From: an uncultured Chloroflexia bacterium
Lineage (GTDB): Bacteria; Chloroflexota; Limnocylindria; Limnocylindrales; CSP1-4
Direction: 5' to 3'
Length of the DNA: 64,000 bases
NCBI GenBank assembly: GCA_963713975.1
Contig: OY970218.1
Coordinates: 1,177,683 to 1,241,682 of the forward strand
Of the stretch, positions 269 through 51,635 are shown one piece after another. Under the pieces are notes generated by a model. The model had not been told where the DNA came from. It ran no database searches and saw nothing but the letters and a program-made list of their open reading frames with translations. Made by a program: the position numbers and the translations under genes. Every line of letters starts with the position of its first letter. Within the stretch, counting starts at the first letter, position 1.

Positions 269-430
269 GTGCACAACAAGCGATTGAGCCAGGGGGCGTG
301 CGTCGCCCTCGGTGCCGGGATCGGCGCCACCATCGGGATCGCCATCGGCAACGTCGGCGCTGGCATCGGCGTGGGTGTCGCCATCGGTGCTGCCCTCGCA
401 ACCAGGGTGTCGGGCGGTGAGGCGAGGTGA
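269..430 (+). CDS. Small glycine-zipper membrane peptide (~53 aa); possibly GlsB/YeaQ/YmgE-like
   Basis: GTG start with GGAGG 7 nt upstream. Translation VHNKRLSQGACVALGAGIGATIGIAIGNVGAGIGVGVAIGAALATRVSGGEAR has GxxxG repeats. Its stop overlaps the GTG of the next gene (GTGA). Confidence 0.45.
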   Translation: MHNKRLSQGACVALGAGIGATIGIAIGNVGAGIGVGVAIGAALATRVSGGEAR

Positions 431-1400
431 AGGCGATCCGCCGAGACAGGTACGGCCCGCCCGACATCCTGGAACTCAACGAAGTCGAGAAGCCCGTCCC
501 GAAGGACGACGAGGTCCTGGTCCGTATCCGGGCGTCATCCCTGAACCAGGCTGACCTCGATTACCTGCTGGGCAAGCCCTTCCTCACGCGCATGGGCACC
601 GGGCTCCGCACGCCGAGGAACCGCGGCCTGGGCTTGGACGCGGCCGGGCAGGTCGAGGCCGTTGGCCCCGACGTGACGGCGTTTCAGCTGGGCGACGACG
701 TGTTCGGAGACCTGACCGCGTTCGGCTACGGTGCCTTCGCCGAGTACGCGTGCGCTCCGGAGGACGCCTGGGCGCGGATGCCCGCGGGCCTGACCTTCGA
801 GGAAGCGGCGACCATTCCCCAGGCGGCCATCCTGGCCCTGCAGGGCCTCAAGCGAGGGAGCGGCTCGGGTCGGGAACGAGGGTGCTGATCAACGGTGCGT
901 CAGGCAACGTGGGCCCGTTCGCCGTCCAGATCGCGAAGGCCTTCTGCGCCCACGTGACCGGCGCCTGCAGCACCGCCAAGGTGGACATGGTGCGGGGGCT
1001 CGGCGCCGACGAGGTCATCGACTACACCCGCGAGGACTACACCCGGCGGGGACAACGGTACGACTGGATCGTCGATGTCGCGGGCAACCGTTCGATCCTC
1101 GAGTGCCGGCGGGCGCTGAAGCCTGGGGGCGTCTACGTCATTGTCGGCGGTCCCACGAGCCGCATCCTGGGCGCCCTGCTGCTCGGTCCGCTGATCTCGC
1201 TGGCCGGGAGCAGGACGATGGGTCTCATGCTGGGGTGGAAGCTCTTCAAGAAGGAAGACGTGGTCCTTCTGAAACAGCTCATCGGGGCTGGGAAGATCCG
1301 GCCGATGATCGATCGGAGGTATCCACTGACGGACGTTGCTGCAGCGCTTCGGTACCTGCATGGCGGACACGCTCGGGGGAAGGTCGTCATCACCGTGTGA
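427..1400 (+). pseudogene. Zinc-type alcohol dehydrogenase / MDR oxidoreductase, disrupted by a frameshift near 860-890
   Basis: ORF 427-888 encodes the MDR N-terminal catalytic domain (MKAIRRDRYGPPDILELNEVEKPVPKDDEVLVRIRASSLN...). ORF 750-1400, in another frame, encodes the Rossmann/C-terminal part (VLINGASGNVGPFAVQIAKAF...RYLHGGHARGKVVITV). The two halves overlap, so a +/-1 frameshift or a sequencing error lies between them. Confidence 0.75.
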
Positions 1401-1508: not shown

Positions 1509-1952
1509 GTGAAGCTGTGCACGGTCTGCGGTGTCATCACCAGCCGCGCGGGTAGTCGCTGCACCGAGCACGCTCGCCAATCCAACCGCAGCAGGCACAA
1601 CGCCATGTACAGCACGCGGGCCTGGCAACGAATCAGCGCCCGCGTGCTTCGTGCCTGGCGTGGTGAGCACGGCAACTGGTGCCCCGGCTACCAGCGCCCC
1701 GCCCACCCCGCGCGTGACCTGACCGTCGATCACGTCGTATCACTCTCGGTTGGCGGTGCGCCGTTCGACATCGGCAACACCGCCGTGCTCTGCCGCTCGT
1801 GCAACTCGACCAAGGGTGCGACGACCGAGGGGGGCGGGGTAGCCCATGGGGGGACGCGGCTGCTCCCTGACCGCGCCCGGCGAGTGTGTGCACGCGGCCG
1901 AGTTTCGTGCTTAATGGGGGGTTTTCGCCAGGGGGCGATGCGCGAGCTCTGA
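1509..1952 (+). CDS. HNH endonuclease (phage/mobile-element type)
   Basis: Motifs CTVCG...C and DHVVSLSVGG...NTAVLCRSCNSTKG are typical of HNH/Zn-finger nucleases. It is isolated from any other phage genes. Confidence 0.7.
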   Translation: MKLCTVCGVITSRAGSRCTEHARQSNRSRHNAMYSTRAWQRISARVLRAWRGEHGNWCPGYQRPAHPARDLTVDHVVSLSVGGAPFDIGNTAVLCRSCNSTKGATTEGGGVAHGGTRLLPDRARRVCARGRVSCLMGGFRQGAMREL

Positions 1953-2468
1953 CGCCCTCGACACAATGGCCGCGGCCGCGACGATGACCCTCCGCGCGAG
2001 CCTCGCACCGCCGCGCCACTGCCCGGCCTGCGGTGCCGGGCTCCCGTATCTCGGCGGGCGGGGCAGGCCGCGCCGGTGGTGCGAGGCCCACCATCCCCGT
2101 CCCGCGCGTCTTCGCCCACGGACGGCACTGGACGCCGGCGTGTCTGCCGCCACGGCCTGAGGCGCCGCACCGAGACCGGCCCCGCGACCTCGCCGATCTT
2201 CGCCCGTGCGGGCCTACGTTGGTCGAAGGGCGGCTCTGAGCCTGCGGGAGCCACCAGTGCCACCGGCCCCGGGCCTGGCGTAGCGCGAGGGCGACCCGTC
2301 CGTCGATCGCCCTCGTCCCGTTGGCGGTGATGGTCGGCGGGCCCCGGTTGGCGGTGTAGGGCCCGCCCGCCGCCGACGGCTCGGCGCCGATGCGCTGGCG
2401 GGCAGGCCGTCTGCTGGGCAAGGCCCGTTCGATGGCCGTCTCCGTGCAGACCCTGTCCCGCGCCCCGA

Positions 2469-2536
2469 GCAAACACCGCAGACGCCGCTGGGCTGACTCC
2501 GTTGGAGGTCGGAGGCAACGGGCCTACGGTCGAGCC
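2469..2536 (+). promoter_or_regulatory. Conserved upstream element, copy 1 (CCCCGAGCAAACACC...CTGGGCTGACTCCGTTGG...CCTACGGTC), ~67 nt upstream of the MDR gene at 2604
   Basis: Clear nucleotide similarity to 10729-10795, which sits at equivalent spacing upstream of an unrelated gene. Contains a conserved CUCCG/CGGAG hairpin. Confidence 0.45.
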
Positions 2537-2603
2537 AGCTCGAGCGACGGTGCACTGAGCCCGTCCCCCGGGAGCACGGATCGACCACCACGAGGAGCGT
2601 CCC

Positions 2604-3641
2604 ATGAAAGCGATCGTCCAGGACCACTACGGCTCGGAGGACGTCCTCCAGCTCCGCGACATCGACCGGCCGGTCATCGGCAACGGCGACGTGCTGGTGC
2701 GCGTCCATGCCGCGTCGATCCATATCGGCGACCGGCTGATCATGCAGGGGAGCCCCTTCCTGGTCCGCATGGCCACCGGCCTCGGGCGCCCGAAGCAGCC
2801 CATTCCGGGCACCGATATCGCCGGCACGGTCGAGGCCGTGGGCAACGACGTTACGCGCTTCAAGGTCGGCGACGAGGTCTTCGGCTGGACGTCTGGCGCC
2901 TTCGCCGAGTACGCCTCGGTGCCCGAGGACCACCTGGCGGCCAAGCCGGCACGGCTGAGCTTCGAGGAGGCCGCGGCCGTGGGCGTTTCCGCGACGGTGG
3001 CGCTCCAGCTCCTTCGCGACGATGGCAAGGTGAAGCCCGGTCAGAAGGTGCTCATCAACGGGGCGTCGGGCGGGGTCGGCACGTACGCCGTCCAGATCGC
3101 CAAGGCGTTCGGCGCGGAGGTCACGGGCGTGACCAGCACTCGCAACGCGGAGATAGTCAGGTCAATCGGCGCCGACCACGTCGTTGACTACACCAGGGAG
3201 GACTTCACGAAGGGGACCGAGCGGTACGACTTCATCCTCGACAACGTCGCCAACCACTCCCTGGCCGAGACGCGTCGCGCCCTCTCCCCGACGGGAACCC
3301 TGCTTCCGAATGGTGGCGGCCACACGGGTGGCGGCGTGGGCCGGCTGATCCGCGCCACGATCGCCTCGATGGTCTTCCGCGGCCAGGGCCGCCCATCCGT
3401 GAAGTTCCAGAACGCCGCGGACTTGGCTGCCCTCGTGGGGCTCGTCGAGACCGGCAAGATCACGCCGGTCATCGACCGCACCTATCCGCTGGCCGAGACC
3501 GCCGCGGCGCTGCGCCAGGTGGGCACTGGGCATGCACGCGGCACCGTCGTGATCAGCATCGCGGGGCCGGCGGCCGGCACCACGACCTCGGCAGGCACCG
3601 TGGGCGCGGCCACACCGCTTGCCGCGGGCGGTGTGGCATGA
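2604..3641 (+). CDS. Zinc-binding dehydrogenase / NADPH:quinone oxidoreductase (MDR family)
   Basis: Full-length 345 aa with GxGxxG-like VLINGASGGVGTYAVQIAKAFGAEV and the C-terminal PVIDRTYPLAE...GHARGTVV motif. Confidence 0.85.
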   Translation: MKAIVQDHYGSEDVLQLRDIDRPVIGNGDVLVRVHAASIHIGDRLIMQGSPFLVRMATGLGRPKQPIPGTDIAGTVEAVGNDVTRFKVGDEVFGWTSGAFAEYASVPEDHLAAKPARLSFEEAAAVGVSATVALQLLRDDGKVKPGQKVLINGASGGVGTYAVQIAKAFGAEVTGVTSTRNAEIVRSIGADHVVDYTREDFTKGTERYDFILDNVANHSLAETRRALSPTGTLLPNGGGHTGGGVGRLIRATIASMVFRGQGRPSVKFQNAADLAALVGLVETGKITPVIDRTYPLAETAAALRQVGTGHARGTVVISIAGPAAGTTTSAGTVGAATPLAAGGVA

Positions 3642-4810
3642 CCCTCCTGCGCGAGCTGGGCCGCCGGAAGCTGCGGACCACGCTGACGGTGCTCGGCATC
3701 ACCATCGGCATCTGGGCGCTGGTGGTGTTCAGCTCCATGGCCAACAAGATCAACTCGTTCGTGGCGAGCGGCAGCGACTACTACACCGGCAAGGTCCTCG
3801 TGAGCGACGGCTCGAGCGGCGGGATCGGCATCAGCCTCGTGCCCGTCGACCTGTCCGTCGCCGACCGGATCGGCGAGATGGCCGGCGTGGCCGCCGTCGA
3901 CCCCCAGGTGCAGATCCCCTACGACGAGGCGGGCACCACGATGTTCAGCATGCCCCGCATGATCGTGGGCGCCGTGGCGGACGCGGACAAGGGCCTCGCG
4001 CGCCTCGATCTGCAGCCTGCCGTCGGGCGACGGCTGACCGCTGCCGACGAAGGATCCCGCGTCATCGTCCTGGGCAGCGACCTGGCAAGAGAGCTGGATG
4101 TCGCCGTCGGCGAGCAGATGCTGCTCCGCGGCGGCACGTTCGAGGTCGTGGGCGTCCTGCAACCGACGCTCAGCACGCCGGACACGACGGCGATGGTGCC
4201 GCTGGCTGCAGGCCAGGACCTCTTCCTCGCGACCCTCCCGCACACCCTGGGCTCGGCCCTCGACCCGACCAGAATGGCGTCGCAGATCGTCGTGTATGCC
4301 GAGGATGGCACCGACCCCGTCGAGCTTGGCGGCCATATCGAGGCCGCGGTCGATCAGGTCACCACGATGACCAGCGCCGACTTCGACCAGCAGGTGGGTA
4401 CGACCACCCTGATCTTCAACGCCATCATCGTCGGCGTCGCGGTCATCAGCCTGATTGTCGGCGGCCTCTCGGTGATCAACACGATGGCCATGAGCGTCAC
4501 CGAGCGCACCCGGGAGATCGGGATCAAGCGCGCGATCGGCGGCTCTCGCCACCGGATCATTCGCGAGCTGGTCGCCGAGGCGGCCCTCATCGGCTTGATC
4601 GGCGGGGTCATCGGCCTCGCGCTCGGCGCCGTCGGGGTCACGCTGGCAAACGAGGCCGGCCGAAGTTCCGGGATGAACCTGTTCGACCTGACCCTCGGCA
4701 CGGCCGTGTTCGCCGTCGCCTTCAGCACGATCCTCGGCATGGTCGCCGGCGTCGTGCCCGCCTGGAACGCGGCCCGGCTCGACCCGGTCGCCGCGCTGCG
4801 ATACGAGTGA
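3638..4810 (+). CDS. ABC transporter permease, FtsX/MacB-like
   Basis: ATGA overlap with the upstream gene. N-terminal TM helix, a large periplasmic-type domain, and C-terminal 3-4 TM helices with the FtsX-like conserved segment (SVTERTREIGIKRAIGG). Confidence 0.8.
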   Translation: MTLLRELGRRKLRTTLTVLGITIGIWALVVFSSMANKINSFVASGSDYYTGKVLVSDGSSGGIGISLVPVDLSVADRIGEMAGVAAVDPQVQIPYDEAGTTMFSMPRMIVGAVADADKGLARLDLQPAVGRRLTAADEGSRVIVLGSDLARELDVAVGEQMLLRGGTFEVVGVLQPTLSTPDTTAMVPLAAGQDLFLATLPHTLGSALDPTRMASQIVVYAEDGTDPVELGGHIEAAVDQVTTMTSADFDQQVGTTTLIFNAIIVGVAVISLIVGGLSVINTMAMSVTERTREIGIKRAIGGSRHRIIRELVAEAALIGLIGGVIGLALGAVGVTLANEAGRSSGMNLFDLTLGTAVFAVAFSTILGMVAGVVPAWNAARLDPVAALRYE

Positions 4811-4817
4811 GGACGAG

Positions 4818-5534
4818 ATGACCACACTGCTGGCAGGTCGCGACCTGCGCAAGACCTACCGCCTGAGTCGGGACAACAGCCTGCATGCCCTTCGCGGCGT
4901 GAACGTGGCCATCGATGCCGGCGAAATGGTGGCCATCATGGGAGCGTCGGGATCGGGCAAGAGCACGCTCATGCACATCCTGGGCCTGCTCCATGCCCCA
5001 GATGGTGATCCTGGTCCGATGCCGCAGCTCCACTTCGACGGCACGGATGTCACGCGCCTGTCGGACGCCGAACGAACCCGCCTCCGCGCCAACCGGCTGG
5101 GCTTCGTCTTCCAGTCGTTCAACCTGGTGCCGACCCTGACCGCGATCGAGAACGTGATGCTGGCCGCGGACTATGCGGGCGAGGACCGGAGAACCGCGCG
5201 ACGTGTCGCCACCGAGGCGCTGTCCTGGGTGGCACTAGAGGCCAGGGCCGGCCACCGTCCAATGGAGCTCTCGGGCGGGGAGCAGCAACGAGTAGCCCTC
5301 GCGCGGGCCCTGGTGAACCAGCCTACGTTGCTGCTCGCCGACGAGCCGACCGGCGCCCTCGACTCGGCCCGATCGACCGAGGTCATGGCCCTCCTCCGAC
5401 GCTTCAACCGGGAGCGCGGGCAGACGATGGTCATCGTCACCCACGACCCCGTCGTCGCTCGGGCCACAGACCGCGTCATCCACATGCAGGACGGCCTTGT
5501 CGTTGACGCGCCGCCCGTGGCGCTCGTCGCGTGA
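4818..5534 (+). CDS. ABC transporter ATP-binding protein (MacB/LolD-like)
   Basis: Walker A GASGSGKST, signature LSGGEQQRVALARAL, Walker B LLLADEPT. Confidence 0.9.
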   Translation: MTTLLAGRDLRKTYRLSRDNSLHALRGVNVAIDAGEMVAIMGASGSGKSTLMHILGLLHAPDGDPGPMPQLHFDGTDVTRLSDAERTRLRANRLGFVFQSFNLVPTLTAIENVMLAADYAGEDRRTARRVATEALSWVALEARAGHRPMELSGGEQQRVALARALVNQPTLLLADEPTGALDSARSTEVMALLRRFNRERGQTMVIVTHDPVVARATDRVIHMQDGLVVDAPPVALVA

Positions 5535-6445
5535 CGGCGATGCGGGCCGTCGTGCTCCCGCGGCCGGGGTCGGCGGACGTCCTCGAGCTCCGGGAGTTGG
5601 AGGTGCCCACCCCGGGCGAGCACGAGGTCCTGGTCCGCGTTCGGGCCGCGACAGTCACGCGCGGCGACGTGGCCCTCAGGCGCGTGCCGCGACTCATGTG
5701 GCCCTTGCTCCGCATCGGGATGGGGCTCCGGCGCAAGCGGATCCTGGGCCACGAATACGCGGGCGAGGTCGAGGCGGTGGGCCGCGACGTAACCCGCTTC
5801 GCTCCCGGGGATGCCGTGTTCGGCACTACCACCGGGCTGGCGACCGGATCACACGCGGAGTACGTGTGCGTGCCGGACGATGGCGTGCTCGCCGCGAAGC
5901 CCACGAGCGTCGCCTTCGAGGAGGCGGCGGCGGTCCCGGTCGGCGCGATGACGGCTCTTCGGCTCCTTCGCGACGCTGGCGTCACGACAGGCTCGAAGGT
6001 CCTTGTCCACGGCGCCTCCGGCAGCGTGGGGACGTTCGCGGTGCAGTTGGCGCGGCACGAGGGCGCCGTGGTCACCGGCGTGTGCAGCACTGCCAACATG
6101 GAGTTGGTGGCGTCGCTGGGAGCCACCACGGTCATCGACTACAACACCATGGACTACGCGGCGGGCGATGTCCGGTATGACGTGGTTGTGGATGCCGCCG
6201 GCAAGGCCTCGCGCGACCGCGCCAGGGCGGTGCTGGCCGAGGGCGGTCGGTTCGTCTCGGTCCGATCCGCTGCCCGCGAACGCGCCGCCGACCTGGTGCA
6301 CATCGCGGGCCTGCTGGAGCAGGGAGCTATCAGGCCCGTCATCGACCGCGCCTACCCGCTGGCGCGGATCGCGGAGGCCCACCGGTACGTCGAGGGTGGT
6401 CACAAGGTTGGGAACGTCGTCATCACGCTGGGGCCCTCGACATGA
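5531..6445 (+). CDS. MDR family NADPH:quinone oxidoreductase / zinc-binding dehydrogenase
   Basis: 304 aa with VLVHGASGSVGTFAVQLAR Rossmann motif. Start and stop overlap the neighbouring genes, indicating an operon. Confidence 0.85.
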   Translation: MTAMRAVVLPRPGSADVLELRELEVPTPGEHEVLVRVRAATVTRGDVALRRVPRLMWPLLRIGMGLRRKRILGHEYAGEVEAVGRDVTRFAPGDAVFGTTTGLATGSHAEYVCVPDDGVLAAKPTSVAFEEAAAVPVGAMTALRLLRDAGVTTGSKVLVHGASGSVGTFAVQLARHEGAVVTGVCSTANMELVASLGATTVIDYNTMDYAAGDVRYDVVVDAAGKASRDRARAVLAEGGRFVSVRSAARERAADLVHIAGLLEQGAIRPVIDRAYPLARIAEAHRYVEGGHKVGNVVITLGPST

Positions 6446-6998
6446 AGGCGTGGATGCGGGAGCAGTACGGCCCGTCGGACGAGCTCGAGCTCAGGGACGT
6501 GCCCAAGCCCGCCATCGGCGATGACGGGGTGCTGGTCCTCGTCCGCGCTTCGTCCCTGAACCAGGCGGATCTCGACTACCTCTACGGTCGGCCATTCCTC
6601 ACCCGCCTGGGCACGGGGCTTCGCCGGCCCAGGAACCGTGCCTTCGGGCTGGACGTGGCGGGGCAAGTCGAGGCGGTCGGCAGCGGAGTGACCGCCTCCC
6701 GGCCGGGCGATGAGGTGTTCGGGGACCTCACGCAGTTCGGATACGGCGCCTTTGCCGAGTTCGCAGGTGCGCCGGAGCGAGCCTGGGCGCACAAGCCGGC
6801 GCCCGTGACGTTCGAGGAGGCCGCGACCGTCCCGCAGGCGGCCGTCCTCGCCCTGCAGGGGTTCCAGGGCTCATCGAGACCGGCAGGATCAAGCCGGTCA
6901 TCGACAGAATATTCCCCCTGCACGAGGTCCCCCAGGCACTGCGGTATCTCGAGGAGAAGCGCGCCGTCGGGAAGATCGTCGTGACTGTGTCACCGTGA
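6442..6998 (+). pseudogene. MDR oxidoreductase remnant with an internal deletion
   Basis: The first ~135 aa match the N-terminus of the paralog at 427 (MKAWMREQYGPSDELELRDVPKPAIGDDGVLVLVRASSLNQADLDYL...). The Rossmann domain is missing. The last ~40 codons, in another frame, read LIETGRIKPVIDRIFPLHEVPQALRYLEEKRAVGKIVVTVSP*. Confidence 0.7.
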
Positions 6999-7768
6999 TA
7001 TCCGGCGAAGCGGACGAGAACACCATGCAGGCGATGGCTGATGCCGGGGACAGCTCCATGGGCGGAACACCTCCAACCGTGGCGGACCATCCACCCGCCG
7101 CGCGCCGCTGGCTCGAGGCAGCGATCCCCTCGGCCCCGGTCCCGATCGACCATGATCCCGGCCCAACCCGACTCCGCGTCCGGGGCTCGATCTGTCGTTC
7201 CCCCGGCGGGAGCTGGATGGACTGGGAAGGGCACCATTCGATCGAAGCCGACGGGCTCGGCTTTCGGTGGCAAGCCAGGCTGCGGTTGGCGCGGTGGGCA
7301 TGGGTCGACGCCGAGGACCGGCTCGATGTCGGGGGCGGATACGGTGGCGCGCGACTTTTTGGCGTCATTCCGGTTGGGTCTGCCCGAGGGCCCGAGGTGA
7401 CGCGGTCGCAGGTCGTCCGCAATCTCGCGGAACTTGCGTTCGCTCCACTCGCCGCGTCGCGAGCACGAGGGATCGTCTGGGTCGCGGACGGCGACGACGC
7501 CTTCACACTCGCGGCTCCTGGGATCGACGCCGCCGCGATCGTCCGAGTCACCATCGATGAAGCTGGCGACGTTCGATCGGCCCGGTCGCCGGATCGGCCT
7601 CGAGAACACGGACGAGCCGGATACCTGCATGAGCCATACCGACTCGAATTTGGCCGCCACGAACGCCGATCGTCGGGCGAACGGATCCCGCTCCGCGCCT
7701 CGGGCACCTTCGAGACTGCCAACGGGGACTGGCCCTACTGGCGGTTCGAGGTGCTCGACGCGTTGTGA
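6995..7768 (+). CDS. Hypothetical protein
   Basis: 257-aa ORF (GTG start; ATG alternative at 7025) with no recognisable motif. It fills the gap between the oxidoreductase cluster and the two-component system. Codon usage appears coding. Confidence 0.4.
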   Translation: MISGEADENTMQAMADAGDSSMGGTPPTVADHPPAARRWLEAAIPSAPVPIDHDPGPTRLRVRGSICRSPGGSWMDWEGHHSIEADGLGFRWQARLRLARWAWVDAEDRLDVGGGYGGARLFGVIPVGSARGPEVTRSQVVRNLAELAFAPLAASRARGIVWVADGDDAFTLAAPGIDAAAIVRVTIDEAGDVRSARSPDRPREHGRAGYLHEPYRLEFGRHERRSSGERIPLRASGTFETANGDWPYWRFEVLDAL

Positions 7769-7840: not shown

Positions 7841-8497
7841 TCAACCCGGACCGCGAAGGTGCGCGAGGACCGCGAGCACGCGACGGTGGTCGTCGGCGGC
7901 GGGTTCCAGCTCGAGCTTCGAGAAGATGTTGGCAATATGGGCCTCAACCGTCTTCCGCGCCATCCCGAGGCGATCGCCGATCGCCTGGTTCGATCGACCC
8001 TCGGCCATCAGCGCCAGGACGGCGCGCTCCCGCTCGGTGAGGTCATCCAGCGGGACGCGCGAGCGGCGACCGACCAGTACCGCGACAACCGCCGGGTCGA
8101 TGACCGAACCTCCCTTGGCGATCCGCCTGATTGCGTCTGCGAGGTCGTCGATGTCTGACACGCGGTCCTTGAGCAGATATCCGACGCCTCCGGCGCCATC
8201 GCTCATCAGGCGAAGCGCAAACGATGGCTCCACGTGCTGCGAGAGCACCAGGATGCCGACAGCCGTTCCATGCTCCGCGCGGATCGCTTGCGCGGCCCGC
8301 AACCCCTCGTCGGTGTGGGTCGGGGGCATCCGGATATCGACGATCGCCACGTCCGGGAGCAGCTCTCGGGTGGCCTTTAGGAGCGCATCGGCGTCGCCGA
8401 CCTGCGCGACCACCTCGAAACCGACATCACCGAGCAGGCGTGCGACCCCCTGGCGGACAAGCACCGTGTCGTCGGCAAGGACGAGCCGCAGCGTCAT
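7841..8497 (-). CDS. NarL/LuxR-family response regulator (REC + GerE HTH)
   Basis: N-terminal receiver with LADDTVLVRQG...DVAIVDIRMP. C-terminal HTH LTERERAVLALMAEGRSNQAIGDRLGMARKTVEAHIANIFSKL. Confidence 0.9.
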   Translation of the reverse strand: MTLRLVLADDTVLVRQGVARLLGDVGFEVVAQVGDADALLKATRELLPDVAIVDIRMPPTHTDEGLRAAQAIRAEHGTAVGILVLSQHVEPSFALRLMSDGAGGVGYLLKDRVSDIDDLADAIRRIAKGGSVIDPAVVAVLVGRRSRVPLDDLTERERAVLALMAEGRSNQAIGDRLGMARKTVEAHIANIFSKLELEPAADDHRRVLAVLAHLRGPG

Positions 8498-8850
8498 CCC
8501 CGCTCCACCAGCGCCTGGATCCTGGCCCCGGAGACCTGCTCCTTGGGAATGAATCCCAGGCAGTCGCTGGTCCTCAGCCGGCGCCCATACGCACGCGCAT
8601 CGCGGCTCGACGTCAGCACGACGAGCGGAGGCGGTCCGTCGACCGCCAGCTCGCGCGCCACCGAGAACCCCTCGACATCGGGCAGTCCGATGTCGAGGAG
8701 GACGAAGTCCGGCCGGAGTGATCGGGCAGCGGCCAGTCCCGATGCCCCGTCAACGGCCTCGCCGACAACGACGAAGCCATCCGCCTCGAGGAGCTCACGC
8801 GCCTGCATGCGGAACCGCGCGTCGTCGTCGACGATCAGGATCGTGCTCAT
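8494..8850 (-). CDS. Single-domain response regulator (receiver only)
   Basis: ILIVDDDARFR...PDFVLLDIGLPDVEGF are CheY-like receiver motifs. Overlaps the neighbouring genes. Confidence 0.8.
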   Translation of the reverse strand: MSTILIVDDDARFRMQARELLEADGFVVVGEAVDGASGLAAARSLRPDFVLLDIGLPDVEGFSVARELAVDGPPPLVVLTSSRDARAYGRRLRTSDCLGFIPKEQVSGARIQALVERG

Positions 8851-8892: not shown

Positions 8893-10662
8893 TCACACGG
8901 GGCCCGGCATAGGTTGATTGGTCGGGATCTGCGCCGAGATTCGTGTCCCGCCACCAACCGGGCTCACGACCGTGATCGTCCCGTCGAGCGCTGCGAGTCG
9001 GTCGGCGAGACCACGCAGGCCACTGCCGGAGCGAGGGTCGGCGCCGCCAATCCCGTTGTCGTCGACCTCGATGGTCAGGTGATCGTCGAGTCCCGTCACG
9101 CGCACCGTCGCCTTGCTGGCATTTGCGTACTTGGTCACGTTCGCGAGGGCCTCAGAGATGACGAAGTACGCGGCCCCCTCGACGGCCGGCGCGTAGCGCT
9201 CCGGGCCGACGTCGACGGCAACGTCGACCGAGGTTCGATCGGCGAGGGACTCCACGGCGGCGCCCAGCCCGCTCTCGGTGAGGATCAGGGGATGGATCCC
9301 GAGCGCCAGGTCGCGGAGCTCGGCGAGCGCTTCCAGGGCTTCTTGTGCCGCTCGATCCAAGCTGCGTCGGATGGCCGGATCGCCATCATCGCCAAGAGCG
9401 CGTCGCGCGACCTGCAACTCGAGGCTGAGCGAGACGAGCCGTTGCTGGGCGCCGTCATGGAGGTCTCGCTCCACACGCCGGCGCTCGACGTCTCCGGCCT
9501 CGACGATCCGTGCGCGCGAGGCGCGGACCTCCTGGAGTCGTGCTTCGACCTCGGCAGTAAGCCGATCGTTCTCGACGGCCAGCCGCATGGCGCTCGCAAC
9601 CGACGCGATCAGCCCCGGTTCCTCGAGGAGCGCCGCGTCGTGGATGATCGCGGCCTCGGTGACGCCGTCCCGCTCGAGCAGCGTCACTGCTTGGCCAGCG
9701 CCGTCTCCAGGTAGCTCGACCATCCCGCCCCCCGCATCGACGAACGCATCCCGCGCTGGGTCCCACCACGCTACCTGGAGAGAGGGGTCACCGAGCGCGT
9801 TGGCGAGGGCATCCCGGAGCCGGGCCGGTGTCGGGGTCTGTCCCAGCTCGACGACGAGGTCCGCGACGCCGGCCCGGGCGAGCTGGGACCGGAGCATGAC
9901 GCCGACGATGGCGATGGGAATCGCGATCTGCGCCGCGAGCACCAGGTTGTTCAGCTCCGGCACGGTGATGCCGAGGGGCTGGAGGATCCAGGATGCCGAC
10001 GCGAGGAGGATGGCAGCGGCACCGACGAGGACCGGCGTCGTCTGGCGTCGGGCTGGTCCGCTCGACCGCAGCCAGCGGCGGCCAACGGACCCGACGAGCA
10101 GGACGGCGGCGAAGGCCAGCGAACTGCGCTGCACCGCGTCGATCACCTGGGCGGCGCGTTCATCCGGCGCGATGGCGAGGACGTTCAAGCCACCTTGGAG
10201 TTCGTAGAACAACAGCCACAGGAACTCGAGCGGGACTGACACGAACAGGAAGATCGCGGCGATCGCACGGTCGACGCGTGAGGCGATGCGGCCACTCGGG
10301 AAGGACAGGAGGAAGATCGCGAAGGCGGCGGCAGAGAGGTCGGAGATCCAGAGGCCGGCGGTGAACAGGATCGGCTGCTGGATGAGCAGGAGGGACCGTC
10401 CGAGCAGCCATAGCCCCCCGAAGGCCACCATCAGGTAGCCGATACGGCTGCTGGGACGCCGTGCCCAGAGGAAGGTGCCGGAGGCGACGAACGACCAGCC
10501 GACCAGCACGGCGAGGAGCGCGCTGATCGTGAGCGGGCCGGGTTGTGTGCCGCCGACCAGCATCCATAGACCGAGCGTGACCGCGGTGATCAGCAGCAGG
10601 GCGCGCGCCCATGTGCGGCCTGACGACGGCAACGAAGAAGTCCTGCCCAATCGGGTCTCCAT
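8893..10662 (-). CDS. Sensor histidine kinase (NarL-type HisKA_3 + HATPase), multi-pass membrane N-terminus
   Basis: H-box RDLHDGAQQRLVSLSLELQ. C-terminal ATPase G-boxes (DDNGIGGA...GSGLRGLADR). ~8 TM helices. Start is most likely the ATG at 10662 (METRLG...); the ORF extends to 10824. Confidence 0.8.
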   Translation of the reverse strand: METRLGRTSSLPSSGRTWARALLLITAVTLGLWMLVGGTQPGPLTISALLAVLVGWSFVASGTFLWARRPSSRIGYLMVAFGGLWLLGRSLLLIQQPILFTAGLWISDLSAAAFAIFLLSFPSGRIASRVDRAIAAIFLFVSVPLEFLWLLFYELQGGLNVLAIAPDERAAQVIDAVQRSSLAFAAVLLVGSVGRRWLRSSGPARRQTTPVLVGAAAILLASASWILQPLGITVPELNNLVLAAQIAIPIAIVGVMLRSQLARAGVADLVVELGQTPTPARLRDALANALGDPSLQVAWWDPARDAFVDAGGGMVELPGDGAGQAVTLLERDGVTEAAIIHDAALLEEPGLIASVASAMRLAVENDRLTAEVEARLQEVRASRARIVEAGDVERRRVERDLHDGAQQRLVSLSLELQVARRALGDDGDPAIRRSLDRAAQEALEALAELRDLALGIHPLILTESGLGAAVESLADRTSVDVAVDVGPERYAPAVEGAAYFVISEALANVTKYANASKATVRVTGLDDHLTIEVDDNGIGGADPRSGSGLRGLADRLAALDGTITVVSPVGGGTRISAQIPTNQPMPGPV

Positions 10663-10728
10663 GCGCGTGCGGCATCGTCCCACAAGCGCGCGCCGGTGCA
10701 ACCCCCGGAATCCGTGCAGGCCCTCTCT

Positions 10729-10795
10729 CCGTCCCCGTGCAAACACCCGCCGGAACGCTGGGTTGTCTCCGTTGGCCGGAGGTCCATGCGGCCCT
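10729..10795 (+). promoter_or_regulatory. Conserved upstream element, copy 2, in the divergent intergenic region between the kinase and the hydrolase gene
   Basis: CCCCGTGCAAACACCCGCCGGAACGCTGGGTTGTCTCCGTTGGCCGGAGGTCCATGCGGCCCTACGGTC aligns with 2469-2536. It lies ~73 nt upstream of the ATG at 10868. Confidence 0.45.
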
Positions 10796-10867
10796 ACGGT
10801 CTCGGTGAGACACGAGCGGGCCATTTACCACAGCCCGATCGCTGCTCGCCTGTCCACGAGGGATGAG

Positions 10868-12196
10868 ATGACTGACAGATCGATGAAAGGCCCGGATCGC
10901 CCCACCGCCGGAGCGTTCGAGCAGCCAGCCGCAGGCACGCGGTCCCCGGTCCCCGGCATCATCGCGTCGCTCGCCGCCGGCGGAGTCCTTGCCGTTGCTC
11001 TCCTCCTCGGTCCCGTCGCTGGCGGGTCGGAACCCCTGGTCACCGGGTCGGTGCTGCTTGCTTTCGGGCTCGGCTGGGGCCTCATGGCCGTACTGACGAC
11101 CCGCTTCAGCGCACAGCCGCAAACCTGGATGACTGTGCCCGCCATGTTTCTCGGCTCGATCGGGCTCGTCCTGATCGCGTTCCAGCCGGGTCCGGCGGCC
11201 ATGGACCTCCTGAGCTGGATCTGGCCGGTCGCCCTGGCCATCGTGGCGATCTGGATGGTTGTGCAGGTCCGCCGTCATCTCGGTGGTCGCGGCCGGTGGC
11301 TGGTGATCCCGATGATCGCGACGCTCCTCGTCTTCGCCGTCGGCGGCGCCATCGCGACCGTCAGCGCGGCCACCCGTTCGAGCGCCTCCGCACCATCCGG
11401 CCGGATGGTCGACGCGGGCGGTCGTAGCCTCTACCTCGAGTGCGCCGGTTCCGGGGGCCCGACCGTCATCCTCCAGGCGGGCCTCGGCGAGTCGTCCGCC
11501 TCCTGGGGACGCATCGCGCCGCAGGTGGCCGCGTCGACCACGGTCTGCGCCTACGATCGCGCGGGTCACGGACGCAGCGATGAGGCCGGGCCGCAGGACG
11601 GGATCGCCCTCGCCACTGACCTGCACGGCTTGCTCGACAGCGCGGGCGTGACCGGACCGTTTGTCCTGGTCGGCCACTCCTCTGGCGGCGACTATGTGCG
11701 GGTCTTCGCCGCCCGCTATCCCGACGAGGTCGCGGGCCTGGTCCTGCTCGACGCCCAGCCGGCGGATGCGTTCAGTGCACTGCCCGACTACCCCGCCTTC
11801 TATCAGAACTACCGACGCGTCGCGACGCTGTCGCCCTCGCTGGCTCGCATCGGACTCGTCGGGCCGATGCTCGGGCTACCCGCCGACCAGTCGACGCCGG
11901 CGGCGGCGCGCGGCGCGCGCGACGAGGTTCTCGCACTTCCTGCCGCCCTGCAGCAGGCGCAGGCGCTCACGAGTCTCGGCGACCGACCGCTCGTCGTGGT
12001 CACGGCCGGAACCGGCCAGCAGGCTGGCTGGCTCGAGGCGCAGAACAGGCTCCCGCACCTCTCGACGGACAGCGCCCACCGCGTCCTCGAGGCCGCCACG
12101 CACGCCTCGATCATCTCTGGCCCGGATGCCTCCACGTCCACGCAGGCGATCCTGGATGTCGTGGCGTCCATCCAGTCCGGGACGGCCCTCCGATGA
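10868..12196 (+). CDS. Alpha/beta-hydrolase fold protein with an N-terminal membrane domain
   Basis: After ~4 TM helices: HGRSD, GHSSGG (nucleophile elbow GxSxG) and a LVLLDA segment. Start set at the in-frame ATG 10868 to avoid overlapping the kinase. Confidence 0.7.
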   Translation: MTDRSMKGPDRPTAGAFEQPAAGTRSPVPGIIASLAAGGVLAVALLLGPVAGGSEPLVTGSVLLAFGLGWGLMAVLTTRFSAQPQTWMTVPAMFLGSIGLVLIAFQPGPAAMDLLSWIWPVALAIVAIWMVVQVRRHLGGRGRWLVIPMIATLLVFAVGGAIATVSAATRSSASAPSGRMVDAGGRSLYLECAGSGGPTVILQAGLGESSASWGRIAPQVAASTTVCAYDRAGHGRSDEAGPQDGIALATDLHGLLDSAGVTGPFVLVGHSSGGDYVRVFAARYPDEVAGLVLLDAQPADAFSALPDYPAFYQNYRRVATLSPSLARIGLVGPMLGLPADQSTPAAARGARDEVLALPAALQQAQALTSLGDRPLVVVTAGTGQQAGWLEAQNRLPHLSTDSAHRVLEAATHASIISGPDASTSTQAILDVVASIQSGTALR

Positions 12197-13056
12197 GCGC
12201 CCGGTCCGATGCGCTCCTGAGTCGCATGGGTCGGCCGATCCCGGCGATCGCGATCGGCGGCCGCCTGACGCGCGCGGTCGTGGCCTCGCTCGTGGTTGGC
12301 GGCTACACGGCCCTCGGCGCCACGTTCAGGCTCAGCGCCGAGGGGTACCTGCTTCTGGGCATCCCGATCACCATAGCCTTCCAGGCACTGGTCGTCCGCC
12401 GCCCGCTCCGGGCGCTGTGGCTTCGCAATGCCGCACCTCTTGCGCTCACGCCACGATCGATTCTGGCGATCGTCGCCGTCGCGATCGCCCCGGCCGCGAT
12501 CGCCGTCCGAGGCGCGCAGCAGGGTGACCCGGTCCTGACCGCCTACGGGGTCGCCGCGATGTTCGGCGCGGTCGGAGCTGTCTACGCCATCCGTGCGATG
12601 AGCCGCGACGCAGCACGCGCGAGCGCTCAGGCATCCCTGGTCAACGGCGCCATCCTCGCAGGCGTCATGGTCGCCTTCCGGCTCGCCACGGGTGGGTTCC
12701 ACGGGAGTCTTGGCGAGGCGGTCGTCACGGCCGTCATCTCCGTCGCCACCTACCTGCCCGTCGTCTTCGTCATGGAGGAGGTCTTCTTCCGCGGGCTCCT
12801 CGATCCCTACCTGCACGGCTTCACGCCCGGACGCGATCGCGCCTCGGCCCTGTACGGATCGGCCCTCTGGGGGCTATGGCACCTGCCGGTGATGTCCCTC
12901 GACCTCGGGCCCCTCACGATCCCGTACCTCGTGGCCATCCACACCGCGATGGGCTACGTCCTCGTTACCGCGTGGCGGCGGACGGGGAACCTCGCCGCTC
13001 CGGGCATCGCACACGCCGTGGCCGACGCCTTGAGAAACGCGGTGGCGGTCCTGTAG
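12193..13056 (+). CDS. CPBP family intramembrane metalloprotease (CAAX protease-like)
   Basis: Motifs EEVFFRG and ...WGLWH... are on TM helices. ATGA overlap with the upstream gene. Confidence 0.75.
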   Translation: MSARSDALLSRMGRPIPAIAIGGRLTRAVVASLVVGGYTALGATFRLSAEGYLLLGIPITIAFQALVVRRPLRALWLRNAAPLALTPRSILAIVAVAIAPAAIAVRGAQQGDPVLTAYGVAAMFGAVGAVYAIRAMSRDAARASAQASLVNGAILAGVMVAFRLATGGFHGSLGEAVVTAVISVATYLPVVFVMEEVFFRGLLDPYLHGFTPGRDRASALYGSALWGLWHLPVMSLDLGPLTIPYLVAIHTAMGYVLVTAWRRTGNLAAPGIAHAVADALRNAVAVL

Positions 13057-19093: not shown

Positions 19094-19200
19094 TTTGGCG
19101 CGCCCGACAGGTGTTGGACGCGCGATTTCAACCTACACCATCCCGATCTGGGGCCGCGACGAGTGGCTCGCCGCGGCGGGCCTGAGTGCGTGCGGCCAGG
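19094..19200 (+). repeat. Direct repeat A: recombinase-tail repeat (56 nt identical to 20872-20927, then ~85% similar)
   Basis: TTTGGCGCGCCCGACAGGTGTTGGACGCGCGATTTCAACCTACACCATCCCGATC, then a diverged continuation. Encodes ARPTGVGRAISTYTIPIWGRDEWLAAAGLSA. Confidence 0.7.
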
Positions 19201-20399: not shown

Positions 20400-20961
20400 T
20401 CTGGCTGGCGGTGACGTGATCTAACGACCTCACGCAGGTCGAGGGAATCGAGCTCGACGACGCGACCATCGGCGCCGTCGTCGCCAGCCTCGGGTCCGGT
20501 CCCCGGCCGGTGGCGATCGACCAGGCGCGGATCGATCGCCAGATCCGCGAGCTCGCCCTGGAGCACGCCGCGGCCGCCTCCAGGACGCCGTCTACCTCGA
20601 GCGGCTCCACGAGCTCCGGGGGGCCAGGGAGAACTTCGAGCGAACGAGCGCCGACGGGATCTCGCCCGAGCGGGCCGTGGCCCGGCTGCGCGAATTGTCA
20701 GCGACGTGGCGCGCAGCCGAGGTTCCTGCGGAGAAGGCCGACCTGCTCCACGCCATCTACGACCGAATCACCGTCGCAGGGAGGAGGAACGTGTCCGTCA
20801 GGCTCACTCCGTCGGCACACACCCACGGAATCGCGCTGGCTCTGCCGGAAAAAGGTCGCAATTTGGCGCGCCCGACAGGTGTTGGACGCGCGATTTCAAC
20901 CTACACCATCCCGATCGACGGCCGCGATGAGTGGCTGGCAGCGGCAGGGCTGCGGGCATGA
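20400..20961 (+). pseudogene. 3' remnant of a large serine recombinase gene (C-terminal coiled-coil/tail region), frameshifted; includes direct repeat B
   Basis: Joined frames give ...IDQARIDRQIRELALEHAAAA / QDAVYLERLHELRGARENF...LSATWRAAEVPAEKADLLHAIYDRITVAGRRNVSVRLTP...ARPTGVGRAISTYTIPIDGRDEWLAAAGLRA*. This matches the C-terminal tail pattern of actinobacterial large serine recombinases. No catalytic or recombinase domain lies upstream. Confidence 0.6.
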
Positions 20962-21260
20962 GGGACGGCTACCAGCGCGGCGAGCTGACGCGAACTCGAA
21001 CCGCCCGTCAGGTGGAGGTGCTCGCCGCATTCGTGGCGGCCGGAGGCTCCGTGCTGGCGGCAGCACAGGTGGTCGGGATTCGGCCGAGTACCGCCAAGCG
21101 ACACCTCGCCGACCTGCGTGCCCGGTCGGGCCTCACGACCCAGCAGCTGATCTACAGCGGTCGAGCTGAGGGCTGGCTCGTTGTTCCCAGCCTGGAGCCG
21201 ACATGTGGGACGGGGCGGTGGCCAGCCGGGCCGGTGCTCCATTCGCTGTCGGACGTCTGA
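20958..21260 (+). CDS. Small GerE/LuxR-type HTH protein
   Basis: TARQVEVLAAFVAAGGSVLAAAQVVGIRPSTAKRHLADLRARSGL resembles a sigma-70 region 4/GerE HTH. Confidence 0.5.
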   Translation: MRDGYQRGELTRTRTARQVEVLAAFVAAGGSVLAAAQVVGIRPSTAKRHLADLRARSGLTTQQLIYSGRAEGWLVVPSLEPTCGTGRWPAGPVLHSLSDV

Positions 21261-51182: not shown

Positions 51183-51635
51183 CTATTGCACGCCAGCGCG
51201 TTCCATGATCTCGACGATGTGGTGCAGGCCACGTTCTTCGAGCGCCTGACGGAACTGCGGCCACGGCGGCCGGTTGCTTCTGTAGGCGTTGGGTCCCGTT
51301 GAGAGTCCGCCGCCCGGTCCGGTCGAGAGACCACCGCGAGGCCCCGTTGAGAGACCACCGCCCGGCCCGGTCGAGAGGCCCCCGCCTGGACCTGTCGAGA
51401 GGCCGCCTCCGGGCCCCGTTGAGAGCCCGCCCCCCGGTCCAGTCGACATGCCGCCTCCGGGCCCCGTCGAGAGCCCGCCGCCCGGTCCGGTCGATGCACC
51501 GCCGCCCGGGCCCGTAGAGAGCCCGCCCCCCGGGCCTGTCGAGAGTCCGCCACCAGGACCGGTGCTGCGATTGCGCGGCCACGTCGCCATGAGTACCCCC
51601 GTCATCGCTAGGGCAGTTCGCCCCGTCACGTCCAT
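51183..51635 (-). CDS. Glycine-rich tandem-repeat protein: (S/L)TGPGGG(L/M/A) x13
   Basis: Translation [48 protein letters not shown]...(13 units)...[35 protein letters not shown]. The non-repeat termini look protein-like. Confidence 0.5.
51289..51600. repeat. 24-bp tandem repeat x13 (GGNCCNGGNGGNGGNCTCTCNACN family), coding on the minus strand
   Basis: Direct inspection shows gtccggtcgagaga(c/g)c(a/g)cc(g/c)c(c/g)(a/g)gg(c/t)cc-type units. Third-position variation occurs between units. Confidence 0.8.

What the first reader, a model, noticed from the sequence alone, without database searches (positions are those of the whole stretch)
2469..2536. Conserved ~65-nt non-coding element present twice at the same distance upstream of unrelated operons
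2469-2536 and 10729-10795 align as CCCCG(A/T)GCAAACACC-GC-G-ACGC-GCTGGG-TG-CTCCGTTGG...GG...CGG-CCTACGGTC with a conserved CUCCG/CGGAG hairpin. Both end 67-73 nt before the start codon, of the oxidoreductase/ABC exporter operon at 2604 and of the hydrolase/CPBP protease operon at 10868. Copy 2 also lies in the divergent promoter region of the NarL-type two-component system. I could not match it to a riboswitch class from memory. It may be a cis-regulatory RNA leader, or the operator of the adjacent NarL-family regulator, which would make the two operons a small regulon.
Basis: seen in the sequence. Interest (0 to 1): 0.55.

Follow-up and report, generated by a model that had tools for sequence, protein, structure and literature searches.

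The report
Shared two-component-system promoter/operator module
The two similar ~95-bp stretches are most likely DNA control regions, a weak promoter preceded by three repeated protein-binding boxes, through which the neighbouring two-component regulator switches on its two flanking operons; this is an ordinary kind of element in an unstudied group of Chloroflexota, not a structured RNA.

Summary
Two copies (2440-2532 and 10710-10802, + strand) share several exact blocks, against 0.00 matches expected by chance, and a profile finds no third copy in the window.

The same module is in every close orthologous locus I recovered from Chloroflexota MAGs. It is always either divergent from the HisKA_3 kinase / receiver-only RR / GerE-type RR operon, or in front of the ADH-MacB/FtsX-ABC operon beside that system.

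Anatomy: three 16-bp direct repeats (nnCnGnGCnRnCnCYG) 23-24 bp apart. The third abuts TTGGnn, then a 17-bp spacer of fixed length and free sequence, then TACGGT, about 72 (copy 1) or 66 (copy 2) nt before the ATG.

RNA tests are negative. Rfam gives nothing, RNAalifold finds no compensatory pair, and folding z-scores run from -0.95 to +1.1. Variant orthologues keep TAnnnT but break the only inverted repeat.

Verdict: an activator-dependent promoter with a tandem operator for the adjacent NarL-family regulator, forming a small local regulon. Binding and the transcription start are inferred, not shown. It is a new member of a known kind, of low-to-moderate interest.

The parts
2440..2455 (+). 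Copy 1, direct repeat R1 (CTCCGTGCAGACCCTG)
   Evidence: Coordinates. Repeat family and 23-24 bp spacing. Conserved in all orthologues.
2463..2478 (+). Copy 1, direct repeat R2 (CCCCGAGCAAACACCG); the most conserved box
   Evidence: GCAAACAC is invariant in the 19 aligned sequences, but CAAACAC was part of the retrieval pattern for most of them.
2486..2501 (+). Copy 1, direct repeat R3 (CGCTGGGCTGACTCCG), which abuts the -35 hexamer
2502..2507 (+). Copy 1, -35-like hexamer TTGGAG
   Evidence: The gap between the GG of the -35 box and CTACGGT is 18 nt in 20 of 21 sequences, which puts 17 bp between the hexamers.
2525..2530 (+). Copy 1, -10-like hexamer TACGGT (TAnnnT)
   Evidence: The variants TAGGTT in L088b and L100 keep T1, A2 and T6.
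2537..2603 (+). Copy 1, inferred 5' leader of the ADH / MacB-FtsX / ABC operon, with the SD GAGGAG; differs from the copy 2 leader
   Evidence: The transcription start is inferred, not mapped.
2604..7768 (+). Target operon A: quinone-oxidoreductase-like ADH (2604-3641), MacB/FtsX permease (3638-4810), ABC ATPase (4818-5534), a second ADH (5531-6445), an ADH fragment (6442-6984) and DUF6544 (6995-7768)
   Evidence: Pfam and NCBIfam. The same ADH-FtsX-ABC-ADH2 order follows the element in L097; L086 has ADH and ABC at the matching offsets, and L088 and L093 show ADH only.
7841..8497 (-). Response regulator, REC + GerE (NarL/LuxR-type HTH); the proposed binder of R1-R3
   Evidence: Pfam. Closest solved relatives are VraR, DevR, DesR and NarL. 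It is 86-95% identical in the related loci over the aligned part (89-92% where aligned full-length).
8494..8850 (-). Receiver-only response regulator
   Evidence: Pfam Response_reg only. Conserved between the kinase and the RR in the orthologous loci where that stretch was fetched.
8893..10662 (-). HisKA_3 histidine kinase with a long hydrophobic N-terminal region that has no Pfam domain. The start codon is uncertain: ATG at 10662, or about 10 codons downstream as in P0001.
10710..10725 (+). Copy 2, direct repeat R1 (ATCCGTGCAGGCCCTC)
10733..10748 (+). Copy 2, direct repeat R2 (CCCCGTGCAAACACCC)
10756..10771 (+). Copy 2, direct repeat R3 (CGCTGGGTTGTCTCCG)
10772..10777 (+). Copy 2, -35-like hexamer TTGGCC
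10795..10800 (+). Copy 2, -10-like hexamer TACGGT
10807..10867 (+). Copy 2, inferred 5' leader (GAGACACGAGC... weak hairpin, SD GAGGGA)
10868..13056 (+). Target operon H: alpha/beta hydrolase (10868-12196) and CPBP/Rce1-like intramembrane protease (12193-13056)
   Evidence: Pfam. In many orthologous loci a DUF4386 gene precedes the hydrolase.

Best explanation
Each copy is a DNA-level control region of about 95 bp: an activator-dependent sigma-70-type promoter with a tandem operator.

Three 16-bp direct repeats (R1, R2, R3; consensus nnCnGnGCnRnCnCYG) lie 23-24 bp apart. They sit at roughly -89, -66 and -43 from the inferred transcription start. R3 abuts a weak -35 hexamer (TTGGnn), which is followed by a 17-bp spacer and a -10 hexamer TACGGT.

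The proposed mechanism is as follows. A membrane signal activates the multi-pass HisKA_3 kinase (8893-10662). The kinase phosphorylates the REC-GerE response regulator (7841-8497). The regulator occupies the three repeats cooperatively and recruits RNA polymerase to the otherwise weak promoter. This turns on the two operons that flank the system: ADH / MacB-type ABC exporter, and alpha/beta-hydrolase / CPBP protease. Because copy 2 lies in the divergent kinase-operon region, the same sites may also autoregulate that operon.

Shown here: the sequence anatomy, its conservation, its exclusive linkage to this two-component system, and the absence of RNA-structure signals.

Inferred: that TTGGnn/TACGGT is the active promoter, that the adjacent regulator is the binding protein, and the sign of regulation.
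For: 1. Linkage. A collection-wide DNA pattern scan gave 16 hits, all in Chloroflexota MAGs. Wherever the flanks held a recognisable gene, each hit lay either divergent from the HK-RRrec-RR(GerE) operon, driving DUF4386/hydrolase/CPBP, or upstream of the ADH-FtsX-ABC operon beside the same system. Two MAGs with two paralogous systems carry one element at each.
2. Unbiased retrieval. All 6 loci fetched through the kinase protein rather than the DNA pattern carry the module (L001, L002, L088b, L100, L101, L102). Kinase paralogues at 35-56% identity lack the full module.
3. Promoter signature. The -35 box to -10 box gap is 18 nt in 20 of 21 sequences. The spacer carries 0.68 bits per column, against 1.9 and 1.8 bits in the boxes. 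L088b and L100 change TACGGT to TAGGTT, keeping T1, A2 and T6. The -10 box ends 72 nt (copy 1) and 66 nt (copy 2) before the ATG, and an SD lies in between.
4. Operator signature. R1, R2 and R3 share 9 of 16 positions. Spacing is 23 bp (14/21 and 13/21) or 24 bp. Self-similarity peaks at an offset of 23, the highest of 42 offsets tested.
5. The shared part stops at the -10 box. The downstream leaders differ between operon types.
6. RNA tests are negative.
7. The regulator is a REC+GerE protein related to VraR, DevR, DesR and NarL. In this family, DesR activates Pdes from two adjacent upstream sites that must both be occupied (PMC4251995). LnrK activates the ABC-exporter operon next to its own genes (PMC7472640).
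Against: - The hexamers are poor matches to TTGACA/TATAAT, and the tool's sigma-70 scan lists nothing in either region.
- No transcription start is mapped, and no binding data exist.
- Most sequences in the alignment were retrieved with a pattern that required CAAACAC, CTCCGTNGG and CTACGGT, so conservation of those boxes is inflated.
- GerE-type regulators usually bind inverted repeats (my own knowledge). Here the repeats are direct, show no dyad symmetry, and are only moderately similar to each other (6-7 of 10 core positions).
- A 23-24 bp period is not an integral number of helical turns.
- CTCC, just upstream of the -35 hexamer, is more conserved than a -35 element needs. An alternative sigma factor or another protein could account for that.
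Confidence: 0.68

Rival explanations
1. The element is a transcribed cis-regulatory RNA (a riboswitch-like leader or protein-binding leader) made from a promoter further upstream.
For: It has a fixed orientation and a fixed distance to the start codon in every instance. An invariant inverted repeat, CCGTWGG ... CCTACGG, could form a 6-7 bp stem, and in some sequences it extends to 10 bp. Copy 2 plus its leader folds slightly better than shuffles (z = -0.95).
Against: - There is no Rfam hit, even at E<=10.
- RNAalifold gives -4.26 kcal/mol with 0 compensatory pairs.
- Three of four folds are worse than shuffles.
- The inverted repeat is broken without compensation in L088b (CCATTGG / CCTAGGT) and L100.
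- One-nucleotide indels fall between the boxes, and the variable segments show no pairing.
- In copy 2 only about 50-80 bp separate R1 from the kinase start codon, leaving little room for an upstream promoter.
Confidence: 0.06
2. The module is a promoter read by a dedicated alternative sigma factor (for example an ECF type). The conserved CTCCGTTGG and CCTACGGTC boxes are its -35 and -10 elements, and the upstream boxes are accessory.
For: The -35 and -10 boxes are conserved over 8-9 bp, more than a housekeeping promoter needs. The boxes match the sigma-70 consensus poorly.
Against: - No sigma or anti-sigma gene is found in the annotated neighbourhood in the window or among the called genes of the loci whose gene tables were returned. 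The conserved linkage is to the two-component system.
- The TAGGTT variants keep the housekeeping TAnnnT pattern but lose CGGTC.
- This reading does not explain three phased upstream repeats reaching to about -95.
Confidence: 0.1
3. The module is a promoter plus an operator for some other transcription factor, such as a repressor encoded elsewhere, and not for the adjacent GerE-type regulator.
For: No binding data exist. The direct-repeat architecture is atypical for GerE HTH dimers (family knowledge). Some related loci also encode a MalT/STAND-type GerE regulator a few kb away.
Against: The only regulator gene consistently adjacent to the element across the recovered instances whose flanks were long enough to show it is the REC-GerE regulator with its kinase. 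The STAND regulator is absent from the annotated part of the window. Box positions from -95 to -40 fit activation rather than repression.
Confidence: 0.12
4. The similarity is a non-functional leftover of a local duplication, or a mobile repeat (MITE/REP).
For: The window has only two copies, 8.3 kb apart.
Against: The module is conserved box by box across MAGs whose kinases are only about 73-82% identical. Its spacers are free to vary and it sits in front of different genes. The flanking coding sequences are unrelated. There are no dispersed copies and no terminal inverted-repeat architecture.
Confidence: 0.03

Closest known systems
DesK-DesR / Pdes of Bacillus subtilis (HisKA_3 multi-pass kinase, NarL-family regulator)
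   Same: Both have a multi-pass membrane HisKA_3 kinase and a REC-GerE regulator. In DesR, activation needs occupation of several adjacent sites upstream of the promoter, and the regulator oligomerises on DNA (PMC4251995).
   Different: DesR has two sites separated by 2 nt on one helical face. Here there are three direct repeats at 23-24 bp. An extra receiver-only RR is encoded in the operon. The targets are an ABC exporter, oxidoreductases and a hydrolase/CPBP protease, not a desaturase. NCBIfam scores fall far below every named equivalog cut-off.
LnrJK-lnrLMN of B. subtilis and similar 'two-component system next to its ABC exporter' detoxification modules
   Same: In both, the two-component system lies beside an ABC exporter operon, and the regulator activates the neighbouring operon's promoter in a very small local regulon (PMC7472640).
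   Different: The exporter here is MacB/FtsX-type and comes with ADH genes. There is a second target operon (hydrolase/CPBP or DUF4386). The inducing signal is unknown, and the organism is an uncultured Chloroflexota lineage.
VraSR / LiaRS cell-envelope stress systems
   Same: The closest solved relatives of the regulator are VraR/LiaR-type proteins (E about 1e-22). The target genes are membrane-associated.
   Different: No LiaF-like partner is present. The kinase has a much larger hydrophobic N-terminal region. I did not test for the published LiaR/VraR site consensus, and I saw no dyad symmetry in the repeats.
Riboswitches and other cis-regulatory leaders in Rfam
   Same: Only the position, upstream of operons at a fixed distance.
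   Different: No covariance-model match, no covariation and no excess folding stability.

Membership tests
Rfam cis-regulatory RNA / riboswitch | Match to a curated covariance model | tested here: not met
   There are 0 gathering-score hits in the whole window. Around both copies only chance-level hits appear, with E>=2.5 and bit scores far below the gathering scores.
Rfam cis-regulatory RNA / riboswitch | Conserved secondary structure supported by compensatory changes | tested here: not met
   RNAalifold on 19 sequences gives -4.26 kcal/mol, a covariation term of -0.37 and 0 pairs with changes on both sides. The only stem is invariant, and it is broken in L088b and L100.
Rfam cis-regulatory RNA / riboswitch | Folding more stable than composition-matched shuffles | tested here: not met
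   z = +0.76, +1.12, +0.74 and -0.95.
Rfam cis-regulatory RNA / riboswitch | The element lies within the transcript (5' UTR) | not testable with these tools
   This needs TSS mapping. The inferred -10 box lies at the 3' end of the shared element.
Sigma-70-type (activator-dependent) promoter | -35 and -10 hexamers close to consensus, 16-18 bp apart | tested here: inconclusive
   TTGGAG or TTGGCC, 17 bp, then TACGGT. This is 3-4 of 6 and 3 of 6 matches, below the scan's threshold, so nothing is listed.
Sigma-70-type (activator-dependent) promoter | Spacer length conserved while spacer sequence is free | tested here: met
   The gap is 18 nt in 20 of 21 sequences even though 17-19 was allowed. The spacer carries 0.68 bits per column, against 1.8-1.9 in the boxes.
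Sigma-70-type (activator-dependent) promoter | Substitutions in the -10 hexamer spare T1, A2 and T6 | tested here: met
   TACGGT becomes TAGGTT in L088b and L100, both retrieved through the kinase protein.
Sigma-70-type (activator-dependent) promoter | Transcription starts 5-9 nt downstream of the -10 hexamer | not testable with these tools
   No transcript data are available.
Operator of a NarL/LuxR (GerE)-family response regulator; local two-component regulon | A REC+GerE regulator with a HisKA_3 kinase is encoded next to the site | tested here: met
   Pfam. PDB relatives are VraR, DevR, DesR and NarL.
Operator of a NarL/LuxR (GerE)-family response regulator; local two-component regulon | The site co-occurs with the regulator genes across genomes | tested here: met
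   Wherever the fetched flanks held a recognisable gene, pattern hits and protein-retrieved loci are linked to the system. The full module is absent from loci of distant kinase paralogues.
Operator of a NarL/LuxR (GerE)-family response regulator; local two-component regulon | Repeated recognition boxes upstream of or overlapping the -35 hexamer | tested here: met
   Three direct repeats lie 23-24 bp apart, and R3 abuts the -35 hexamer.
Operator of a NarL/LuxR (GerE)-family response regulator; local two-component regulon | Inverted-repeat (dyad) half-sites typical of GerE HTH dimers | tested here: not met
   By inspection of the consensus, R1-R3 have no dyad symmetry; the repeats are direct.
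Operator of a NarL/LuxR (GerE)-family response regulator; local two-component regulon | Specific, phosphorylation-dependent binding by the regulator | not testable with these tools
   This needs EMSA or footprinting.
ECF-sigma promoter | GGAAC-like -35, CGT-like -10, and a linked sigma/anti-sigma gene | tested here: not met
   GGAAC is present only in copy 2, by chance. No sigma gene is among the annotated neighbours. The TAGGTT variants lose CGGTC.
Mobile or dispersed repeat (MITE/REP) | Many dispersed copies, terminal inverted repeats, no fixed gene context | tested here: not met
   There are two copies in 64 kb, and the gene context is always the same.

The most novel reading that the evidence does not exclude
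The GerE-type regulator may not bind as a dimer to a palindrome. Instead it may bind head-to-tail as an extended oligomer along three direct repeats with an unusual 23-24 bp period that reaches the -35 hexamer. From the same array it may control both the target operon and, in the divergent arrangement, its own kinase operon, with the co-encoded receiver-only RR acting as a phosphate sink. That would be an atypical recognition mode for the NarL family, defined in an uncultured Chloroflexota clade. A still more novel reading, that the core acts as an unstructured protein-binding RNA, is not strictly excluded, but I put it at no more than 0.06.
Probability: 0.25. Interest if true: 0.4.

Novelty: new member of a known kind. 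Interest (0 to 1): 0.27.

Why it matters
The result gives a concrete, testable operator/promoter model with base-level coordinates for an uncharacterised but very widespread two-component system. More than 7,000 kinase relatives scored E<=1e-30, and the listed best 120 (71-82% identical) are mostly from metagenomes; the related genomes recovered are soil/freshwater Chloroflexota MAGs. It also defines the system's minimal regulon: a MacB-type exporter with oxidoreductases, and a hydrolase with a CPBP protease or DUF4386 protein. That gene set looks like a membrane or antimicrobial-stress detoxification module. The work also removes a false riboswitch candidate. Conceptually it is an ordinary arrangement.

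Tried and rejected
- The look-up of encoding contigs with the window's regulator and with P0001 found nothing on record. P0016 returned no DNA.
None carries the full module, so that scan gave only a negative control.
- The Rfam gathering and E-value scans found nothing.
- The inverted repeat CCGTWGG / CCTACGG, as an RNA stem or a dimer site, is invariant in the pattern-retrieved sequences but broken without compensation in L088b and L100. Rejected.
- I considered a small ORF or uORF. The boxes are contiguous rather than codon-periodic, and 1-nt indels occur between them. The (A/G)TG after the -10 box in some class-H leaders is not universal, and the frames differ. Rejected.
- Sigma-54 and ECF promoter readings were rejected by inspection: there is no GG-N10-GC pattern, no conserved GGAAC, and no linked sigma or enhancer-binding gene.
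- A fourth repeat in the leader (CGAGCnGACGG) matches the repeat consensus weakly but is not at the 23-bp phase. Left open.
- The NarL heptamer TACYYMT is not matched on either strand (inspection).

Full report
**Observation.** A composite pattern taken from the shared blocks matches only at 2469-2505 and 10739-10775, with 0.00 matches expected in shuffles. The promoter-like half, CTCCGTTGG-N17-CCTACGGTC, likewise matches only these two sites. A profile HMM of the core recovers the two copies at E about 1e-20; since both were in the training alignment, the informative result is that nothing else in the 64-kb window scores better than E=4.

The similarity also extends about 25 nt further upstream, through a block TCCGTGCAGRCCCT, to 2440 and 10710. 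It ends at CTACGGTC, 72 and 66 nt before the ATGs at 2604 and 10868. The flanking coding sequences are unrelated, so this is not a segmental duplication.

**Gene context.**
- Copy 1 precedes a quinone-oxidoreductase-like ADH (2604-3641), a MacB/FtsX permease, an ABC ATPase, a second ADH, an ADH fragment and DUF6544.
- Converging on this operon, on the minus strand, are a REC-GerE response regulator (7841-8497), a receiver-only regulator (8494-8850) and a HisKA_3 kinase with a long hydrophobic N-terminal region (8893 to about 10662).
- Copy 2 lies in the roughly 205-bp divergent region between the kinase and an alpha/beta-hydrolase / CPBP-protease operon.
- The regulator's closest solved relatives are VraR, DevR, DesR and NarL. 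No NCBIfam equivalog cut-off is reached.

**Relatives.** The kinase has thousands of relatives, and the listed best 120 (71-82% identical) come mostly from metagenomes. One is named as Candidatus Limnocylindrales, in the Chloroflexota.

Loci fetched through the kinase protein, and so unbiased with respect to the DNA element, all carry the module in the divergent region. These are L001 and L002, L100, L101 and L102, and the kinase-proximal copy in L088.

A collection-wide DNA pattern scan of species-representative genomes gave 16 hits, all in Chloroflexota MAGs. By tblastn, wherever the fetched flanks held a recognisable gene, each hit is of one of two kinds. 'Class H' is divergent from the kinase operon and drives DUF4386/hydrolase/CPBP. 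'Class A' lies upstream of the ADH-FtsX-ABC operon adjacent to the same system. Two MAGs with two paralogous systems have one element at each.

Loci of distant kinase paralogues (35-56% identity) lack the full module. The element therefore belongs to this two-component system and to a clade of close orthologues.

**Anatomy.** In 19-21 non-redundant sequences the module is a set of near-invariant boxes separated by segments of fixed length and free sequence.

The 3' part is CTCCGTWGG, then 18 variable nucleotides, then CTACGGTC. That reads as TTGGnn, a 17-bp spacer, and TACGGT. The spacer carries 0.68 bits per column, against 1.8-1.9 in the boxes. Two protein-retrieved orthologues (L088b, L100) have TAGGTT instead of TACGGT, which retains T1, A2 and T6 of a -10 hexamer. 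L088b also has CCATTGG.

Upstream lie three 16-bp direct repeats:
- R1: aTCcGTGCAGACCCTn
- R2: ccCCGaGCAAACACCG
- R3: cgCtGgGcTGnCTCCG

They share nnCnGnGCnRnCnCYG and are spaced 23 bp apart, or 24 bp in about a third of the sequences. Self-similarity of the region peaks at an offset of 23, the highest of 42 offsets tested. R3 abuts the -35 hexamer. Taking the start about 7 nt after the -10 hexamer, the repeat centres fall near -89, -66 and -43.

Downstream of the -10 box the sequence differs between operon classes, and each class has its own leader.

**RNA hypothesis.**
- Rfam gives no hit at gathering score in the window, and only chance-level hits at E<=10 around either copy.
- RNAalifold on the shared core gives -4.26 kcal/mol, a covariation term of -0.37 and no compensatory pair.
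- Single-sequence folds are no more stable than dinucleotide shuffles (z = +0.76, +1.12, +0.74, -0.95).
- The one recurrent pairing, CCGTWGG with CCTACGG, never covaries. It is broken without compensation exactly where the -10 and -35 boxes vary while keeping promoter-critical bases.
- One-nucleotide indels occur between the boxes.

Together with the shared part stopping at a -10-like box, this points to a DNA signal rather than an RNA.

**Mechanism.** The best-supported reading is an activator-dependent promoter. The -35 and -10 hexamers are weak; they fail the tool's sigma-70 scan. They are preceded by a tandem operator that extends to about -95 and touches the -35 hexamer. The only regulator gene consistently linked to the element is the adjacent REC-GerE response regulator.

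I therefore infer a four-step mechanism. The membrane kinase phosphorylates the regulator. The regulator occupies R1-R3 cooperatively. RNA polymerase is recruited. The two flanking operons are induced. In the divergent arrangement the same sites may also autoregulate the kinase operon.

This resembles two characterised systems. DesK-DesR acts at Pdes through two adjacent upstream sites that must both be occupied, with the regulator tetramerising on DNA (PMC4251995). LnrJK-lnrLMN has a regulator whose only target is the neighbouring ABC-exporter operon (PMC7472640).

The target genes (MacB-type exporter, oxidoreductases, hydrolase, CPBP protease, DUF4386 membrane protein) suggest a membrane or antimicrobial-stress response. 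That is inference only.

**Caveats.**
- No TSS or binding data exist.
- Conservation of CAAACAC, CTCCGTNGG and CTACGGT is inflated, because the pattern used for retrieval required them. The six protein-retrieved sequences do agree.
- The direct repeats are only moderately alike, lack the dyad symmetry usual for GerE-type regulators, and have a period that is not a whole number of helical turns.
- The invariant CTCC next to the -35 hexamer could instead reflect an alternative sigma factor or another protein.

The rivals, with my probabilities:
- An operator for another transcription factor: about 0.12.
- An alternative-sigma promoter: about 0.10.
- A transcribed RNA leader: about 0.06.
- A non-functional or mobile repeat: about 0.03.

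**Verdict.** The feature is a new, uncharacterised example of a well-known kind of system: a two-component-system-dependent promoter shared by a small local regulon. Interest is low to moderate. The value lies in a base-resolution, testable model for a widespread system in uncultured Chloroflexota, and in removing a false riboswitch candidate.

Noticed in passing
window 19094-19195 and 20862-20963 (+): A second repeated segment. About 55 nt are perfectly identical (TTTGGCGCGCCCGACAGGTGTTGGACGCGCGATTTCAACCTACACCATCCCGATC). The next ~50 nt differ mostly at positions spaced by multiples of 3, which suggests the 5' ends of two paralogous genes with an identical leader or N-terminus, possibly by gene conversion.
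   Followed up: partly
window 51295-51557: A tandem array of 10.7 copies of a 24-nt unit (CCCGTCGAGAGACCGCCGCCCGGC), 74% matches and no indels. It probably encodes an 8-residue proline-rich protein repeat.
   Followed up: no
window 427-1400, 2604-3641, 5531-6445, 6442-6984: There are four or five paralogous zinc-ADH / quinone-oxidoreductase genes within 7 kb. The first is split into two overlapping ORFs (427-888 and 750-1400), which may be a frameshift. The one at 6442-6984 has only the N-terminal domain.
   Followed up: partly
window 10807-10867; the same stretch in L001, L085, L089, L092, L095, L096, L098: The class-H leader is itself highly conserved (GAGACACGAGCCGACGGTCCA ... AACCGATCGCTGCTCG) and can form a modest hairpin (CGAGCCGA.GG / CC.AUCG..GCUCG). 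Almost no covariation supports it: 1 pair with compensatory changes, consensus -4.5 kcal/mol. L088 has this leader in front of an ADH gene.
   Followed up: partly
L086 and L093, leaders after the -10 box (sequences): These class-A leaders have a long-range stem, UCCAGCA ... UGCUGGA, that overlaps the SD. They also have inner hairpins that differ between the two MAGs in a compensatory-looking way (CCGCG/CGCGG versus CGCC/GGCG). This was seen by eye only, and the window's copy 1 leader lacks it.
   Followed up: no
L002 about 9905-9950 (- strand), upstream of R1: A partial second, tandem copy of the promoter half (GCTGGGCTGAC-CTGTCGG-N15-CCTACGGC). On the opposite strand it reads CCGTAGG-N18-ACAGGTC, facing the kinase gene. 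It may be the kinase-operon promoter.
   Followed up: no
L016 843-909 (- strand): A weak HMM hit (E=0.0045) next to a kinase paralogue of about 40% identity. GGGCTGGCTCCGCTGACA-N17-TACCGT looks like a diverged promoter of the same design.
   Followed up: partly
L084/L090 (MAG CAVXVP01) and L087/L094 (MAG CAVRKB01): Two MAGs carry two paralogous kinase / RR / RR systems. Each has its own copy of the module, and one of each pair is a sub-variant (GTGCAGTCCC ... GGGTGGGCTCCGT).
   Followed up: partly
window 1509-1952 (+): An HNH-endonuclease ORF lies between an ADH paralogue and copy 1.
   Followed up: no
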